Shown: positions 1-6,000 of the stretch, one piece after another
Layout: the number at the start of each line of letters is the position of its first letter
Position numbering within the stretch: position 1 is the first letter of the stretch
Source: an uncultured bacterium
Lineage (GTDB): Bacteria; Verrucomicrobiota; Kiritimatiellia; RFP12; UBA1067
Length of the DNA: 64,000 nt
Direction: 5' to 3'
Assembly: GCA_902764415.1 (NCBI GenBank)
Contig: CACWVU010000017.1
Location: 65,133-129,132, forward strand
Made by a program: the position numbers

Positions 1-3000
1 CAACGGACGCATCGACTCCAAGTGCCCCTGCCCCACCAACCAGCGCTTCGGAAAGGTCTGCCCGCACGTCGTCGCCATCGGCATCGCGCAGATGGTGATG
101 GAGATGGACGAGCCCGAGGAGCGCCCGCGATCCGACGCCCCCGCGCCCGCCGCGCCGCCGCCGGAACCGGAGCCGGAGTTCATCGAAGTTCCGATGAAGC
201 CGCGCTTCTACGCCGCGCTCGCCGGTTCGCGCGCCTCGCTCTCGATAATGGTCGACGCGAAGTACGGCGACGTCCGCTTCCACGCCTGCTCGCTCCAGCC
301 GCCGCGCGCGGTGTGGCTGGAGGACGAGGACGACCCGCTCGTCCGGCGCACCCGCGCGATCGGCGCCGAGCGCAGCGCGGTGAAGCGCCTGCTCAAGTGG
401 GGCTTCGAGCCGGGCTACAAGGACGGCGACCCGCGGCACTACATCACCGATCCCCAGAAGGTGCTCAACTTCCTCGGCGCCGGCATCCCCGAGCTCCGCC
501 GCGCCGGCTGGCGGTTCGACCTCTCCGACGCGCTGATGGAACTGACCGAGGGCATGCCCTCCATCGTGCCCGTCGTCACCGTGAAGGACGCGCCCGGCGG
601 CGCCTTCGACATCCACTACACCTTCGACGCGCGCGGCAAGGCGGTCTCGCCCGCCGACGTCCAGGCCGCGCTCAACCGCGGCGACGGCTACCTGATGAAG
701 GATGGCAAGGTCGTCCTGTTGGACTCCGGCGGCATCGAGGCGCTGCGGGACGTGTTCAGCGACTGCGCCCCCTCGCAGAACGGCGCCGAGCGCGGCTGGT
801 TCCGCGTCAAGTCCGCCTACGCCGCCTACGTCAAGAGCTCGCTCGACCTCGTCGACTGCGAAGTCAACGCCGGCCGCGCCAAGTTCTGGCGCACCATGAC
901 CCGCCAGCACGGACGCCACACCAACGCCAAGTTCGAGCCCGTGCCGCTCGGCCACCTCGACCGCATCCTCCGCCCCTACCAGAAGCAGGGCGTCTACTGG
1001 ATGCGCTTCCTCGAGAACGCCGGGCTCTCCGGGCTGCTGGCGGACGAGATGGGCCTCGGCAAGACGCTCCAGACCCTCGCCTGGCTCACCTTGCCGCGGA
1101 GCGACCCGCGCGCCCACGACGCCAAGGGGCGCAACCTGCCGGCGCTCATCGTCTGCCCCACCTCGCTCGTCCGCAACTGGGAGGCCGAGGCGCAGCGCTT
1201 CACCCCGGAGCTGAAGACGCTCGTCGTCTCCGGGCACGACCGCCAGCCGCTCTTCGCCAAGATCCCCGAAGTCGACGTCGTCATCACCTCCTACGCCCTG
1301 CTCCTGCGCGACCTCGAGACCGGCTACGTCACCCAGGACTTCTCCGTGGTCGTGCTCGACGAGGCCCAGAACATCAAGAACCGCCAGACGCGCAGCGCCA
1401 AGTCGGTCAAGGGCGTCCACACCATCCAGCGCCTCGTCCTCACCGGCACCCCGATCGAGAACACCGTCGCCGACGTCTGGTCGATCTTCGACTTCCTGAT
1501 GCCGGACTACCTCGGCGACTACGAGTCGTTCCGCAGCCGGTTCGAAGACCCGATCGCGGACGGCGACGCCGACGCCGAGGCCACGCTCGCGCGCCTCAAG
1601 CGCAAGATCTCGCCCTTCATCATGCGGCGCGTGAAGAAGACGGTGGCAAAGGACCTGCCGGACAAGATCATCAAGGTCTCCTACTGCCCGATGTCCGACG
1701 ACTCGCAGCGCGAGTACACCAAGGCGCTGATGGCCGCGCGCGTGCAGGCGGGCGACATCATCAAGGCCAAGGGCTTCCAGAAGTCGCGCTTCGAGCTCCT
1801 GGCGCTGCTCACCAAGCTGCGCATGATCGCCTCGCGAGCGAAGATCGACACCTTCATGGAGCAGCTCCAGCAGGCGATCGACTCCGGCCACAAGGTGCTT
1901 GTCTTCTCCCAGTTCGTGAAGATGCTCGCGCTCATCCAGAAGCGGCTGCGCGAAGCCGGCATCGCCTACTGCTACCTCGACGGCTCCACCAAGGACCGGC
2001 TCGGGCAGTGCAGCAAGTTCAACCGCACGCCGCAGATCCCGGTGTTCCTCATCTCGCTCAAGGCCGGCGGCACCGGCCTCAACCTGACTGCGGCGGACAT
2101 GGTGATGCACTACGACCCGTGGTGGAACCCGGCGGTGGAGGACCAGGCGACGGACCGCGCGCACCGCATCGGCCAGAAGAAGAAGGTCTACGTGATGAAG
2201 ATGATCGCCTCGGGCTCGATCGAGGAGAAGGTGCTGGCGCTCCAGCGCCGCAAGCAGGCGATCATCAACGCCACCGTCGACACCACTGACGCCGCGATCA
2301 TGGAAACCCTCTCCGCCGCCGACTTCGACGAACTCCTCTCCTAATCTCCCGCGCCGACAACTGAATTTGGGAACTCCGATCTGTGTGGGCTCTCACTACC
2401 GTTTCGCTGAATGTTTTGTGCTTTGCGCATATCATTCATTTTTCACAGCCATACTGGCCATAGGTTTTATCTGCGGCTTCGCCGCAGGTGGTCTTGGGGG
2501 TCTGGGGGGCACCCCCAGCTAAAACAATCCTGAAAATCCTGTAAATCCTGTCCTCAACCCTCTGTGTCTCTGTGCCTCTGTGTGAGCCCAATCTGCCCCG
2601 GAACTGAATAGTGGTTGTCATCCGCGAAGCAGCGGAGTGGTAACGAGAGCCCCAACCATCGGAGTTTCAACTATCCCAAACCACGAGCAACGAAATATGG
2701 TATAATACGCACACTCAACTCATTCAAAATTGAATGATTCAAATCTGAATGACCATGCAGCACCAAACACAGAACCCCTTCAGGTACGGCGCCAAGGTGA
2801 CCGGCGGCGCGTTCTACGACCGCCGCGAAATCAAGAACTCGATGGAAAACGCCATCGACGGCGGCAACAACGTCGTCCTCTACGGACCTCGCCGCTACGG
2901 CAAGTCCTCGCTCGTCGCCGAGATGATGACCGAGCTCCAGGCGCGCGGAACCGTCTGCGTCTACCTGAACATCATGAACTTCGCCTCGCTAGCCGACTTC

Positions 3001-6000
3001 GTCATGGCCTACACCAAGGCGGTGTACGACCAGCTCGCGCCTGCGGCGGCGGCGCTCAAGCACATCTCCGGCTTCTTCAGGCGGATACGTCCCGTCGTCA
3101 GGATGTCCGAGGACGGACGGCCGGAGATGTCGTTCTCCTTCGACTCCGGCAAGATCGGCGTCGCCGAGCTGCGCGAGGCCTTCGAGCTCCCCGAGAAGCT
3201 GCGTCCACGCCGGAGCCGGCTGGTGATCGTTCTCGACGAATTCCAGGAGGTGGCGGAATTCGGCCTCGGCGCCAGGTTCGAGCAGGTCATGCGCAGCGTC
3301 ATCGAGAACCACTCCGAGATCGGCTACGTCTTCCTCGGCTCCAAGACGCACATGCTCAAGCGCATGTTCGCCGCGCCTTCGCGTCCCTTCTACCGCAGCG
3401 CCCAGACCTTCTCGCTCGCGCTGCCGCCGGAGGACGAGGGACTGAAGTTCCTGGTGGACAAGTTCGCGTCCGTCGGAATGTCGATCGGCGCGCCGGTGGC
3501 GAAGAAGATCGTGGAACTGTCCGGCAACGTGCCTTACTACCTGCAGGCGCTTGGCTCCTGGACCTTCCGCGTCGCCAGCGAACTACGCAAGAACAAGATT
3601 TCCGCGGCAGACGTCGACAACGCCTTCGAAATGATGTACGACGCCGAACGAGACCTCTTCGAGAGCATGTTCCGCGCCCTGCCGGAATCCCAGCGTCTGG
3701 TGGCGCGCGCCCTGGCACTGGAGCCGGCCGGGGTCATGACCGACGAATACCGCACGCGGCACTTCCTACCCAACGCATCTACCGTAGGCACTGCAATACG
3801 CCGCCTTGTCGCCGATTCGCGCATCGACATGGTCGACGGGCTCTACCGCCACCTCGACCCAGTCTTCGCCCACCACCTCCGCCGCACCAGCCCGATGTAG
3901 CCCTCTCCGCCGCCGACTTCGACGAACTCCTCTCCTAAACAAGCCCCAAATCACGAAATATGGTATAATACCAACATCCAAACCATTTAACCAACCCCAA
4001 GGAACGAACCGCCATGAAGAAGCTACTTCTCCTCGCTGCCTCTGCCTCGATGCTCGCGCTCGCAGGATGCCGCTCCACCACCCCCGGCCTCATCTTCTCG
4101 CTTGATTTCGAGTCCGAGCAGGAGGTGCTGAATCCCTGCGTCGGGCCCACGGGAGCCCTGCGCCAGCAAAAGGCCCTTACCTTCGCCGACGGCAAGGAAG
4201 GCAAGGCACTGCGCGTCGAGGCCGGCGGCCCCCTCCTCTCCTACACGCTGCCCACCAACTTCCTCGGCAAGACCGGTTGCGTCGAGTTCTGGGCCAAGCT
4301 CGAGGGCAACAAGAGCACCTACGGCTGCGCCGATCCGTGCTTCTACTGCATCAAGTTCGCGAACAACGAGGAGAACCTCGTCCAGTTCACCGCCAACAAC
4401 GGCGTCGGCTGCCGCGGCCTCTACGGACGCATGGTCCACCACGAGCGAATCACTCACAAAGGCTGGGGCGGCCGCGTCAGCTATGCCGAAGCCCTCGGCG
4501 ACGACATCTCCGGCTGGCACCACTACGCCTTCGTCTGGAACACCGACGGCGTGACCGGCTACTTGACCAAGGACGGCAAACCGTCCCCGGCGGTGATGTT
4601 CGTGGACGGCAAGCCGCACTGCGACGTGAACCTCATGCCCGAAGGCCCCAAGGACAGCGTCGCCTCGCTCGTCAACACCGCGGCCAAAGGCGCGGAGCTC
4701 GGCTTCCCGCTCACCCGCGGCAGAAGCGCCAGCCCCTACCTGATCGACAGCTTCCGCATCTGGGACTTCGACAAGGTCCCGCCCGCACCGGCCAAGGACT
4801 AATCGAAGTCGATTAGCGCTTCAACCGAACGCCTAAAGCACTCATCGGAGAAGTGCGAGGCAATCGTCTTCTCCGCGCGCTCGCCGATGCGCTGGCGTAG
4901 ACAGCTGTCCTCGTAAAGCGACCGCAAGCACTTCGCGGCGGCATCGACGTCCGGCTCCGGCCACGACTCTGCCTTCATGAAGTATTCCCCCTCCTTGATC
5001 GCGACGCGCCGAAACGAAACCAGCATGGCATTGTCCTGGGTGCAGAACTCAAGCGGCGCTCCAAAGTCGGTTATAACCACCGGCTTCCCGAGCGACATCG
5101 CCTCCGCGATTCCAAGCCCGAACCCTTCGCCGCGATTCAGCGAAATGTAGACGTCGGCGGCGTTCGTGAGCGCATAGACGTCCGGCTGCGGAATATATGC
5201 GGAAATAACCATCAACCTTTCCCCGACCCCAAGCTCCGCGACAAGCGACTTGATCTCGCTAAGTTCTTTGCTGAATTCGCCGGCATGATTTACCTTGAAA
5301 ACAAGCCAGGCATCCTTGGCGTCCGCGAACGCCGCGGCGAACGCCCTCACCATCCCGAGCGGGTTCTTGCGATGGAACGAGCCAAGGTCGAAATTGGAAA
5401 ACACAACGAATGCGTCCTCTGGCAGCGAATATTTCCTGCGCACCTCGTCCGCTCCCGGAAACGGCCGCGGCACCTGCAAAAGCGGGTACAGCACCTTCCT
5501 GACCGGGAAGCCGGATTCCTTGAACGCCTTCCCAATCGCGTCGTGGTTGAAGTCCGACATCGTAAGGAAGAAATCAGACGACAACGGATCGGGACTGAAT
5601 TCTGGAAACGCCTTTTCCGCCTCCCAGAAGCACAGCCTTCCGCACTTTGGCCCAAGCCCTTTGGGAAATGTGCTGTAGTGAAGCTCGACCACAACCGAGA
5701 ACTTCCTTGCGTCAAATTCGCCGCGTGGAGTAAGCAGTCCATCGAAGTCTCCCTTTGCCACATTCCCGCTGACCACCCCCGTGTCGAAGGTCTGACACGG
5801 CACTCCGCACTCCTTGAGCCGTATGACAAAGTCGCGCAGGGTCTTGCTCATGCTCCACGACTGCGTCAACGGTCCCACTACCGTAATGCCACGCACCGGC
5901 ACAGTGTCACTATGCCGACGCGCATTGGCGACGATGAGCCGGCGATTCCTCGCCATGCGGACCTTCTTGACCGCCCACTCGCACACTCCTTTCAGGCCCC

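What the first reader, a model, noticed from the sequence alone, without database searches (positions are those of the whole stretch)
2307..3938. Perfect 38-bp duplication of the SNF2 gene 3' end brackets a 1.56-kb ATPase cassette (att-like insertion scar)
The last 12 codons plus stop of the SWIM/SNF2 gene (2307-2344) recur exactly at 3901-3938, immediately after the stop codon of the AAA-ATPase gene. The intervening 1556 bp starts with a lower-GC non-coding stretch that carries a MITE-like element and its own promoter. It ends precisely with the ATPase stop.

This is the geometry of site-specific integration into the 3' end of a gene, in which the incoming DNA carries a copy of the target so the host ORF stays intact. 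No integrase, transposase or recombinase is present. It may be a stranded cassette, a product of a trans-acting recombinase, or an unrecognised cassette-capture mechanism. The direct repeats also make the cassette excisable by homologous recombination.
Basis: seen in the sequence. Interest (0 to 1): 0.7.

Follow-up and report, generated by a model that had tools for sequence, protein, structure and literature searches.

The report
Old recombination scar beside SNF2 gene
The exact 38-base repeat is real, but it is an old leftover copy of the SNF2 gene's tail from a past rearrangement at the edge of a fast-changing sugar-coat gene cluster in a rumen bacterium, not the mark of an active mobile cassette.

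Summary
Window 2307-2344 and 3901-3938 are identical 38-mers, the only two copies in the window. The second starts one base after the ATPase stop codon.

- The same two-copy arrangement occurs in every ATPase-bearing assembly of this Kiritimatiellae species that covers both positions. The copies differ by 0-2 bases and share polymorphisms, so the event is old.
- It is absent from 78 other species.
- The stretch between SNF2 and the ATPase is not part of one cassette. It is a slot that holds a MITE, an acetyltransferase, a Phd/PIN toxin-antitoxin pair, or almost nothing.
- A second variable slot follows the second 38-mer.
- An ATPase-free allele exists (L107). Its breakpoints lie in the two identical 19-nt promoter boxes (2690-2708 and 3953-3971), not in the 38-mers.
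- No integrase, terminal inverted repeats or other 38-mer-flanked cassettes were found.

Related loci show similar flank duplications of 45-263 nt around toxin-antitoxin and ATPase cassettes. The best reading is a displaced gene tail left by integrase-independent recombination, as proposed for Rhs and T6SS arrays. It is ordinary in kind.

The parts
1..2344 (+). 3' part of the conserved SNF2-family helicase gene. Its upstream neighbour in related contigs is a radical-SAM (rlmN-like) gene. It marks the conserved edge of the variable locus.
   Evidence: Pfam SNF2-rel_dom 5.9e-65 and Helicase_C. Orthologues were found in 80 Kiritimatiellae species.
2307..2344 (+). Repeat copy 1: the functional tail of SNF2 (11 codons, 2 nt of the twelfth, and TAA).
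2345..2689 (+). Variable slot 1. It holds the short native SNF2 3' flank (TCTCCCGCGCC...) followed by a MITE-like element of about 305 nt (about 2371-2676).
   Evidence: Inverted arms at 2387-2409 and 2630-2652. Other strains carry different content at the same place. MITE copies occur elsewhere in the species' loci.
2690..2708 (+). Promoter box 1 (ACGAAATATGGTATAATAC, extended -10 type), which drives the ATPase. It is the left junction of the ATPase indel relative to allele L107.
   Evidence: Identical to 3953-3971. The motif recurs at 7 sites in the window against 0.01 expected.
2720..2752 (+). Two tandem 14-nt palindromes (ATTCAAAATTGAAT and ATTCAAATCTGAAT), a putative operator that travels with this ATPase family.
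   Evidence: Inverted repeat I3. In five homologous loci it is 84-95% identical at DNA level (L094 and L095 join the CDS match), while their coding sequences are 70-79% identical. It is present upstream of 8 of 9 homologues, on either side of the -10 box.
2749..3900 (+). Full-length 383-aa AAA+ ATPase with a C-terminal winged helix (Pfam ATPase_2/AAA_16, Orc1/Cdc6-like fold). This is the constant gene of the inserted block.
   Evidence: Pfam. Homologues are 365-400 aa with variable tails. The AlphaFold model has pLDDT 84.9. The best PDB matches are 2fna, 2qen and Orc1/Cdc6.
3901..3938 (+). Repeat copy 2: a displaced, non-coding remnant of the SNF2 tail, abutting the ATPase stop codon.
   Evidence: It is conserved in all ATPase-bearing strains. 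It has no RNA structure (z = +1.05) and no terminator-like site.
3953..3971 (+). Promoter box 2, which drives the 262-aa lipoprotein gene. It is the right junction of the ATPase indel relative to L107.
4014..4802 (+). A 262-aa putative lipoprotein, the first gene of the glycosyltransferase-rich variable locus. The window protein itself has no Pfam hit; only distant homologues carry PF13385.
2709..3971 (+). The 1263-nt segment that is present here and absent from allele L107. It runs from the 5' UTR through the operator, the ATPase, the 38-mer remnant and 14 nt to promoter box 2.
   Evidence: blastn of L107 against the window. L107 4314-4343 matches W 2679-2708, and the overlapping L107 4324-5164 matches W 3952-4789.

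Best explanation
The second 38-mer is a displaced fragment of the SNF2 gene's tail. It is a fossil junction left by an old, integrase-independent recombination event. That event placed a self-contained ATPase cassette (own promoter, palindromic operator, AAA+/winged-helix gene) between SNF2 and a hypervariable surface-glycan locus.

The most likely route has two steps. Incoming DNA carried an SNF2 3' end followed by the ATPase cassette. It paired homologously inside SNF2, and its far end joined illegitimately 38-45 nt before the resident stop codon. This is homology-facilitated illegitimate recombination. The cell kept a complete SNF2 gene, and the resident tail was pushed downstream of the ATPase.

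What is shown: the anatomy, the age, the population distribution, the lack of recombinase or terminal repeats, and recurrent similar scars in related loci. What is inferred: the direction of the event and the exact recombination route.

Since the event, the remnant has been inherited passively and occasionally homogenised with copy 1. MITEs and small cassettes have moved in and out of the two slots that follow each copy. The ATPase itself has been lost in some strains by recombination between the two identical promoter boxes.
For: 1. The arrangement is derived and species-specific. Among the 80 SNF2 loci (one genome per species), only the one from this species has the ATPase and a second tail copy.

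2. It is old. Both copies are present in all ATPase-bearing assemblies that span both sites, across at least five different slot-1 contents and three slot-2 contents. The copies share two polymorphisms (T/A at position 6, A/G at position 26), which implies exchange between them.

3. The left boundary is sharp and identical in all strains, exactly at the ATPase stop. A further 5 of 7 matching bases lie upstream (ATGTAG- against ATGGAGT). In four strains the same 9-10 nt SNF2 flank, TCCGCCGCG(C), also follows copy 2.

4. There is no integrase or transposase within about 10 kb in any strain. The insert ends have no inverted repeats. Copy 2 has no structure or terminator.

5. The same geometry, with variable lengths, occurs in other Kiritimatiellae loci. 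L092 has 263 nt of the SNF2 tail around about 8.8 kb. L099 has 107 nt, starting 18 nt before the upstream gene's stop, around a HipBA pair. L096 has 232 nt around a DUF4143 ATPase and 45 nt around an ATPase pair. L094 has 50 nt. L104 has 72 nt.

6. The region is full of other gene-fragment scars: a Phd fragment fused to the acetyl/methyltransferase 3' end, a truncated lipoprotein in L014, and a promoter fusion in L009.

7. The published analogue is displacement of Rhs tips and T6SS effector modules. These have been explained by homology-facilitated illegitimate recombination (PMC5361080) or by a circular intermediate (PMC2935791).
Against: No donor arrangement (SNF2 followed directly by the ATPase, without a remnant) was seen in the 78 other species sampled.

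The L096 DUF4143 case is explained more simply by an insertion that duplicated its target than by displacement. There the duplicate includes a 5' gene part, and an intact gene is restored downstream.

The junction microhomology is weak. Natural transformation is not known for this group (my knowledge; not tested).

L107 could in principle be the ancestral empty state rather than a deletion.
Confidence: 0.5

Rival explanations
1. Duplicative insertion. The ATPase cassette was pasted in at a break with long staggered ends, or copied in by replication template switching. That would directly create a long target-site duplication (about 45-55 nt here) from one and the same resident molecule.
For: The flank duplications in related loci vary widely in length (45-263 nt). 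Several restore an intact downstream gene or promoter, for example L096 (232 nt) and L099 (107 nt). This is what a single duplication-insertion event would give. No donor with SNF2-ATPase adjacency was found.
Against: The outcome cannot be told apart from displacement with the present data. No conserved cassette ends or terminal repeats point to a dedicated mechanism. Beyond the 38-mer and about 10 nt, the promoter similarity between the two sides is no better than between unrelated promoters of the genome.
Confidence: 0.22
2. Single homologous crossover (Campbell-type) between the chromosomal SNF2 tail and a circular DNA that carried the ATPase plus a short SNF2 tail. This is the model Jackson et al. 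proposed for Rhs tip displacement.
For: It gives the same geometry. The model is published for an analogous case (PMC2935791). The shared polymorphisms between the copies show that the 38-mers can interact.
Against: Homology of 38-55 nt is near the lower limit for RecA-dependent crossover (my knowledge). The origin of a circle that already carries the SNF2 tail is unexplained. The only ATPase-free allele found has its junctions in the promoter boxes, not in the 38-mer.
Confidence: 0.1
3. attL/attR of a site-specific integrative element that targeted the SNF2 3' end and later lost its integrase, or that is mobilised in trans.
For: The direct repeat covers a gene's 3' end and keeps the gene intact. 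A second, independent duplication of the SNF2 tail occurs in a distant relative, L092.
Against: No recombinase lies within about 10 kb in any of more than 10 strains, and none appeared among nine L092 ORFs scanned against Pfam. The L092 duplicate is 263 nt plus a second 70-nt SNF2 fragment, which does not look like a shared att core. The cassettes that do vary between strains are not flanked by the 38-mer. No excision product at the 38-mer was found. The right end of the 'element' is the ATPase stop codon itself.
Confidence: 0.08
4. The second 38-mer is kept because it functions, for example as a protein-binding site, as part of the lipoprotein promoter region, or as a homology handle for cassette exchange.
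For: It is kept at 0-2 mismatches in all strains although the neighbouring DNA is very variable. Each copy is immediately followed by a variable slot.
Against: Its divergence (0-5%) is within the range seen for SNF2 (1-5%) and the ATPase (0.4-1.3%) among the same strains, so no extra constraint is needed. It has no structure. Strains L107 and L014 do without it. The variable cassettes are bounded by MITEs and promoter boxes, not by 38-mers.
Confidence: 0.05

Closest known systems
C-terminal (3'-end) displacement scars at Rhs loci and T6SS effector-immunity arrays (Jackson et al. 2009, PMC2935791; Kirchberger et al. 2017, PMC5361080)
   Same: A conserved gene stays intact. New DNA sits directly downstream. 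A fragment of the conserved gene's 3' end is left stranded further downstream. Fragments vary in length, no integrase is involved, and the arrangement is shared by related strains because the process is slow. The proposed routes are homology-facilitated illegitimate recombination or a circular intermediate.
   Different: Here the anchor gene is an SNF2 helicase, not a polymorphic toxin. The displaced piece is only 38-55 nt and carries no alternative functional tip. Only one displacement is seen rather than a string. The cargo is an ATPase cassette at the border of a glycan locus.
Genomic islands integrated at the 3' end of a gene (tRNA, tmRNA or protein-coding) by tyrosine or serine integrases
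   Same: Direct repeats consist of the target gene's 3' end on both sides of the inserted DNA, and the target gene is kept intact.
   Different: No integrase, no excision product at the repeat and no recurrence of the same core with other cargo. The inner boundary coincides with the stop codon of the cargo gene. The 'island' content next to the repeat is swapped by other means.
Integron gene cassettes
   Same: Small single-gene or two-gene units (acetyltransferase, toxin-antitoxin, ATPase) lie in one orientation in an array next to a conserved gene. Strains differ in content and order; the acetyl/methyltransferase sits in slot 1 or in slot 2.
   Different: There is no intI and no attI or attC hairpins. 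Every cassette has its own promoter. The junctions observed are MITE copies and the shared -10 promoter box.
Archaeal-type AAA+ ATPases of Pfam ATPase_2 (PF01637; structures 2fna SSO1545 and 2qen PAB2304) and Orc1/Cdc6
   Same: The cargo protein has the same fold: an AAA+ domain followed by a winged helix.
   Different: There is no evidence of a replication role. Here the gene is a stand-alone unit inside bacterial polysaccharide loci and carries a conserved double palindrome next to its promoter.

Membership tests
Integrase-mediated island (attL/attR at a gene 3' end) | A tyrosine or serine recombinase gene inside or next to the element | tested here: not met
   The Pfam calls for all genes within about 10 kb on either side in 10 strains show none. 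None appeared among nine L092 ORFs scanned. The rest of the 64-kb window was not scanned protein by protein.
Integrase-mediated island (attL/attR at a gene 3' end) | Empty sites with one copy of the core, joined exactly as expected from recombination within the repeat | tested here: not met
   An exact pattern for SNF2-specific upstream sequence, the 38-mer and the copy-2 flank gave 0 hits in metagenome contigs. Power was low, because only 2 contigs of the species are in that collection. The ATPase-free alleles L107 and L014 have other breakpoints.
Integrase-mediated island (attL/attR at a gene 3' end) | The same core sequence flanks different cargo or occurs at further sites | tested here: not met
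   There are only two copies per locus in all strains (one in the ATPase-free alleles). The variable cassettes are not bracketed by it.
Transposon or insertion sequence with target-site duplication | Terminal inverted repeats at the ends of the inserted DNA and a short duplication of fixed length | tested here: not met
   No inverted repeat pairs the ends at 2345 and 3900. The duplicate is 38-55 nt here and 45-263 nt in analogous cases.
Integron cassette array | An intI integrase, an attI site and attC hairpins at cassette ends; cassettes mostly without promoters | tested here: not met
   No integrase was found. Copy 2 and its flank do not fold. Each cassette carries its own -10 box.
3'-end displacement scar (Rhs / T6SS type; illegitimate or one-sided homologous recombination) | An intact conserved gene, then newly placed DNA, then an orphan fragment of the same gene's 3' end | tested here: met
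   The same architecture occurs in L092 for the orthologous SNF2.
3'-end displacement scar (Rhs / T6SS type; illegitimate or one-sided homologous recombination) | Orphan fragments of variable length, with junctions lacking specific recombination sites | tested here: met
   Lengths are 38-55 nt here, 263 nt in L092 and 107 nt in L099. The junction sequences share no motif.
3'-end displacement scar (Rhs / T6SS type; illegitimate or one-sided homologous recombination) | A donor lineage in which the new DNA already follows the anchor gene without a remnant | tested here: not met
   No ATPase homologue lies within 10 kb downstream of SNF2 in 78 other species. Sampling was one genome per species.
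3'-end displacement scar (Rhs / T6SS type; illegitimate or one-sided homologous recombination) | Short microhomology at the illegitimate joint | tested here: inconclusive
   ATGTAG- against ATGGAGT directly upstream of the repeat, 5 of 7 bases. This is too short to separate from chance.
MITE (the element in slot 1) | Small, non-coding, with terminal inverted repeats and multiple dispersed copies | tested here: met
   Imperfect arms at 2387-2409 and 2630-2652. There are several copies per locus in L018, L010, L001 and L014, including upstream of the radical-SAM (rlmN-like) gene. A target duplication was not resolved.

The most novel reading that the evidence does not exclude
The small accessory cassettes of Kiritimatiellae glycan loci would spread by a shared, so far undescribed, recombinase-free mechanism. 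These cassettes are the Orc1/Cdc6-like ATPases with their double-palindrome operator, the DUF4143 ATPases and the toxin-antitoxin pairs. The mechanism would duplicate tens to hundreds of bases of the target, often including the neighbour gene's end and its promoter, and would use the shared extended -10 promoter box as a joint for cassette gain, loss and reshuffling. The ATPase, a DNA-binding AAA+ protein, might take part in its own spread.
Probability: 0.1. Interest if true: 0.6.

Novelty: new member of a known kind. Interest (0 to 1): 0.3.

Why it matters
The scar itself matters little. It documents one more way in which a hypervariable surface-glycan locus in an uncultured rumen lineage is rebuilt, and it cautions against reading a perfect repeat at a gene's 3' end as proof of site-specific integration.

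The context is of moderate interest. A strain panel shows two adjacent slots where MITEs, toxin-antitoxin pairs, acetyltransferases and orphan ATPases are exchanged, with junctions at MITEs and at a 19-nt promoter box. Flank duplications recur around such cassettes in related genomes. If a common mechanism lay behind these, it would be worth describing.

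Tried and rejected
1. Chance or assembly artefact. Rejected: 0 of 100 shuffles gave a match, and the repeat is in independent assemblies built with k=141.

2. Genome-wide repeat. Rejected: there are only two copies per locus, and only this locus was found in metagenome contigs.

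3. A real ORF ending in copy 2 (2730-3938, in the SNF2 frame). Rejected: its Arg/Pro/Gly-rich translation is typical of an off-frame reading of GC-rich coding DNA, and the ATPase frame has the Pfam hits.

4. A known RNA. There were no Rfam hits in 2200-4100.

5. A terminator or structured element in copy 2. None was found.

6. An ATPase truncated by the junction. Not supported: the family tails after FAHHLR vary from 2 to 10 or more residues.

7. A duplication that extends through the promoter (about 90 nt). Not supported: the similarity of the two promoter regions is within the range of unrelated promoters.

8. L014 as a clean empty site. Rejected: it carries a different rearrangement that also removed most of the lipoprotein gene, and its SNF2 falls inside the species' diversity.

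9. The ATPase as a known defence gene. Only weak PADLOC and NCBIfam hits were found.

10. The sigma-70 scan found no -35/-10 pair. The promoter assignment therefore rests on the recurrent TGGTATAAT extended -10 motif and is an inference.

Full report
OBSERVATION

The 38-mer CCCTCTCCGCCGCCGACTTCGACGAACTCCTCTCCTAA occurs at window 2307-2344 and 3901-3938. Even with up to 3 mismatches it occurs nowhere else in the 64 kb, and no match arose in 100 shuffles.

Copy 1 is the tail of the SNF2 helicase gene (...ETLSAADFDELLS*; Pfam SNF2-rel_dom and Helicase_C). Copy 2 starts directly after the TAG (3898-3900) of a 383-aa ATPase (Pfam AAA_16/ATPase_2).

The 404 nt between SNF2 and the ATPase have lower GC. 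They contain a MITE-like element and an extended -10 box, ACGAAATATGGTATAATAC. This box recurs, identical over 19 nt, in front of the next gene (2690-2708 and 3953-3971). Variants of the box occur at 7 places in the window.

WHO CARRIES IT

The ATPase protein is found, residue for residue, in many rumen and gut metagenome assemblies and MAGs (132 index blocks).

In every contig that spans both positions, both 38-mers are present with 0-2 differences. These are L001-L007, L009, L010, L018, L105 and L106. L105 appears to be the same contig as L003, since both are 54,683 nt long.

The T/A difference at position 6 occurs in both copies, in all four combinations. An A/G difference at position 26 is also seen in either copy. 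The two copies have therefore exchanged sequence.

Divergence among the same strains is 0.4-1.3% in the ATPase gene and 1-5% in SNF2. The conservation of the 38-mer needs no special explanation.

A scan of one genome per species with the SNF2 C-terminus returned 80 Kiritimatiellae loci. The window matches RUG14537 (L018) at 100%. Only L018 carries an ATPase homologue and a second tail copy. The arrangement is therefore derived, specific to this species, and older than the species' strain diversity.

THE '1.56-KB CASSETTE' IS NOT ONE UNIT

Slot 1 lies between the SNF2 stop and the ATPase promoter. Its content differs between strains:
- a MITE only (window, L002, L005);
- a 317-aa acetyltransferase (L001, L007);
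- a 518-aa acetyl/methyltransferase (L003, L006);
- a PhdYeFM/PIN pair (L004, L010, L106);
- only 78 nt (L009), where an acetyltransferase-type -10 box is fused to the ATPase 5' UTR.

Slot 2 follows the second 38-mer:
- directly the lipoprotein promoter (window type);
- a hairpin element with or without a DUF4143 ATPase (L006, L008, L010, L018);
- in L018, MITEs plus the same acetyl/methyltransferase that sits in slot 1 elsewhere.

In four strains copy 2 is followed by TCCGCCGCG(C), the same native flank that follows copy 1 in several strains. Upstream of the repeat there are 5 of 7 further matches (ATGTAG- against ATGGAGT). The original duplicate was therefore probably about 50-55 nt.

A claim that it also covered the promoter failed a control. 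The two promoter regions are no more alike than unrelated promoters of the genome.

ATPase-FREE ALLELES

L107 was found through a lipoprotein homologue. Its order is a radical-SAM (rlmN-like) gene, SNF2, MITE, promoter, lipoprotein, with a single 38-mer.

Against the window, its left homology runs to the end of promoter box 1. Its right homology starts at the beginning of promoter box 2, and the two overlap within the box. The difference is thus a 1263-nt segment (2709-3971) bounded by the 19-nt boxes, not by the 38-mers.

L014 also lacks the ATPase. It has a different rearrangement that removed most of the lipoprotein gene as well.

I found no product of recombination between the 38-mers. The exact-pattern search was negative. 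Its power was low, because only two contigs of the species are in that collection.

WHAT THE CARGO IS

The ATPase family is large (817 homologues with E <= 0.001; the 120 listed are 50-79% identical) and most members are 365-400 aa long. The window's copy is therefore full length, and the tails after FAHHLR are variable.

Homologues sit, in the same orientation as their neighbours, mostly inside polysaccharide-synthesis loci of related bacteria.

Two tandem palindromes, ATTCAAAWTTGAAT and ATTCAAATYTGAAT, lie next to the promoter in 8 of 9 cases. They are downstream of the -10 box in some and upstream of it in others. In five homologous loci they are 84-95% identical at DNA level (L094 and L095 join the CDS match), while their coding sequences are 70-79% identical. 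I infer that this is a DNA operator.

The AlphaFold model (pLDDT 84.9) is an AAA+ domain followed by a winged helix. Its nearest solved structures are SSO1545 (2fna), PAB2304 (2qen) and Orc1/Cdc6. Hits to defence-system and NCBI family libraries are weak.

MECHANISM

- No recombinase lies within about 10 kb in any strain.
- The insert has no terminal inverted repeats.
- Copy 2 is unstructured and is not a terminator.

Direct repeats of 28 nt or more, spaced 0.3-12 kb apart, are rare in the 1.4 Mb of loci examined (50 pairs). Outside this species' loci and their MITE copies only about 17 pairs remain, and several of these bracket small accessory cassettes:
- L092: 263 nt of the orthologous SNF2 tail, plus a second 70-nt SNF2 fragment, around about 8.8 kb. 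Its close relative L093 lacks the duplicate.
- L099: 107 nt around HipBA, beginning 18 nt before the upstream gene's stop and including the promoter.
- L096: 232 nt around a DUF4143 ATPase and 45 nt around an ATPase pair.
- L094: 50 nt. L104: 72 nt.

The junctions share no motif. The region also holds other gene-fragment scars.

This is the pattern described for Rhs tip displacement and for T6SS effector-immunity arrays. Those have been explained by homology-facilitated illegitimate recombination (PMC5361080) or by a single crossover with a circular intermediate (PMC2935791).

I therefore read the second 38-mer as a displaced SNF2 tail from one old event of this kind. I rate the illegitimate-join route at about 0.5, a duplicative insertion at about 0.2, a Campbell-type crossover at about 0.1 and a decayed att site at under 0.1.

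The main weakness is that no donor arrangement was found among the 78 other species.

VERDICT

It is wrong on three points: the event is not recent, the scar is not an att site, and the 1.56 kb is not a single cassette. The direct repeats are not the junctions actually used for loss of the ATPase.

The feature is a new instance of a known kind. Interest is low to moderate and comes mainly from the cassette dynamics of the surrounding locus.

Noticed in passing
window 2720-2752; also L094 about 4235-4270, L095 about 1780-1812, L096 9932-9968, L098 3447-3480, L104 9936-9982: Two tandem 14-nt palindromes (ATTCAAAATTGAAT and ATTCAAATCTGAAT) accompany this ATPase family in 8 of 9 loci. In five homologous loci they are 84-95% identical at DNA level (L094 and L095 join the CDS match), while their coding sequences are 70-79% identical. 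They lie on either side of the -10 box, so they are probably an operator. The protein has a winged helix.
   Followed up: partly
window 2690-2708, 3953-3971, 7660-7677, 16841-16858(-), 21933-21950(-), 23920-23937(-), 35208-35225(-): A long shared promoter box, CGAAATATGGTATAATAC (extended -10 type, with no recognisable -35), precedes many genes. In strain comparisons it is the junction of the ATPase indel (L107) and of a promoter fusion (L009).
   Followed up: partly
L092 10698-10960 and 19791-20053 (plus 9635-9704 and 19728-19797): An independent duplication of the orthologous SNF2 3' end (263 nt, 97% identical) in a distant Kiritimatiellae MAG. It brackets about 8.8 kb with a GH28-like hydrolase and an FGE-sulfatase-domain protein. 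Its close relative L093 has no duplicate.
   Followed up: partly
L099 610-716 and 2263-2369; L096 18183-18414 and 19988-20219: A HipBA toxin-antitoxin pair and a DUF4143 ATPase are each bracketed by long direct repeats (107 and 232 nt). The repeats start at the end of the upstream gene and include the promoter, so the downstream gene keeps a promoter.
   Followed up: partly
L018 15440-15520 (compare L014 11660-11740 and 12160-12215): The 3' end of the 518-aa acetyl/methyltransferase gene carries a fragment of the Phd antitoxin gene, followed by the 3' flank of the PIN toxin gene. The cassette seems to have replaced most of a toxin-antitoxin pair.
   Followed up: no
L107 4254-4325; also L014 7243-7295 and L018 13868-13911: Tandem heptamers (CACGAAC/CACGAGC), present in variable numbers (about 2 in the window, about 9 in L107), lie directly upstream of the promoter box, in the position of a -35 region.
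   Followed up: no
L018 13055-13112; L006 3180-3237; L008 2183-2235; L010 11191-11248: An element with a perfect palindrome (TTTCAAGT TGT ACTTGAAA) directly follows the second 38-mer in some strains. In L008 it precedes a DUF4143 ATPase gene; in the others only the element remains.
   Followed up: no
window 2517-2552 and 51646-51680(-): A short dispersed motif (AATCCTGTAAATCCTGTC, with a GGGGGCACCCCCAGC neighbour) forms the core of the MITE-like element. It also occurs alone in another intergenic region of the window.
   Followed up: no
one search hit table (ATPase homologues P0001-P0120): Many homologues lie on contigs of only 1.2-2 kb, barely longer than the gene. Assemblies apparently break at both flanks, as expected for a conserved gene between hypervariable or repeated flanks.
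   Followed up: no
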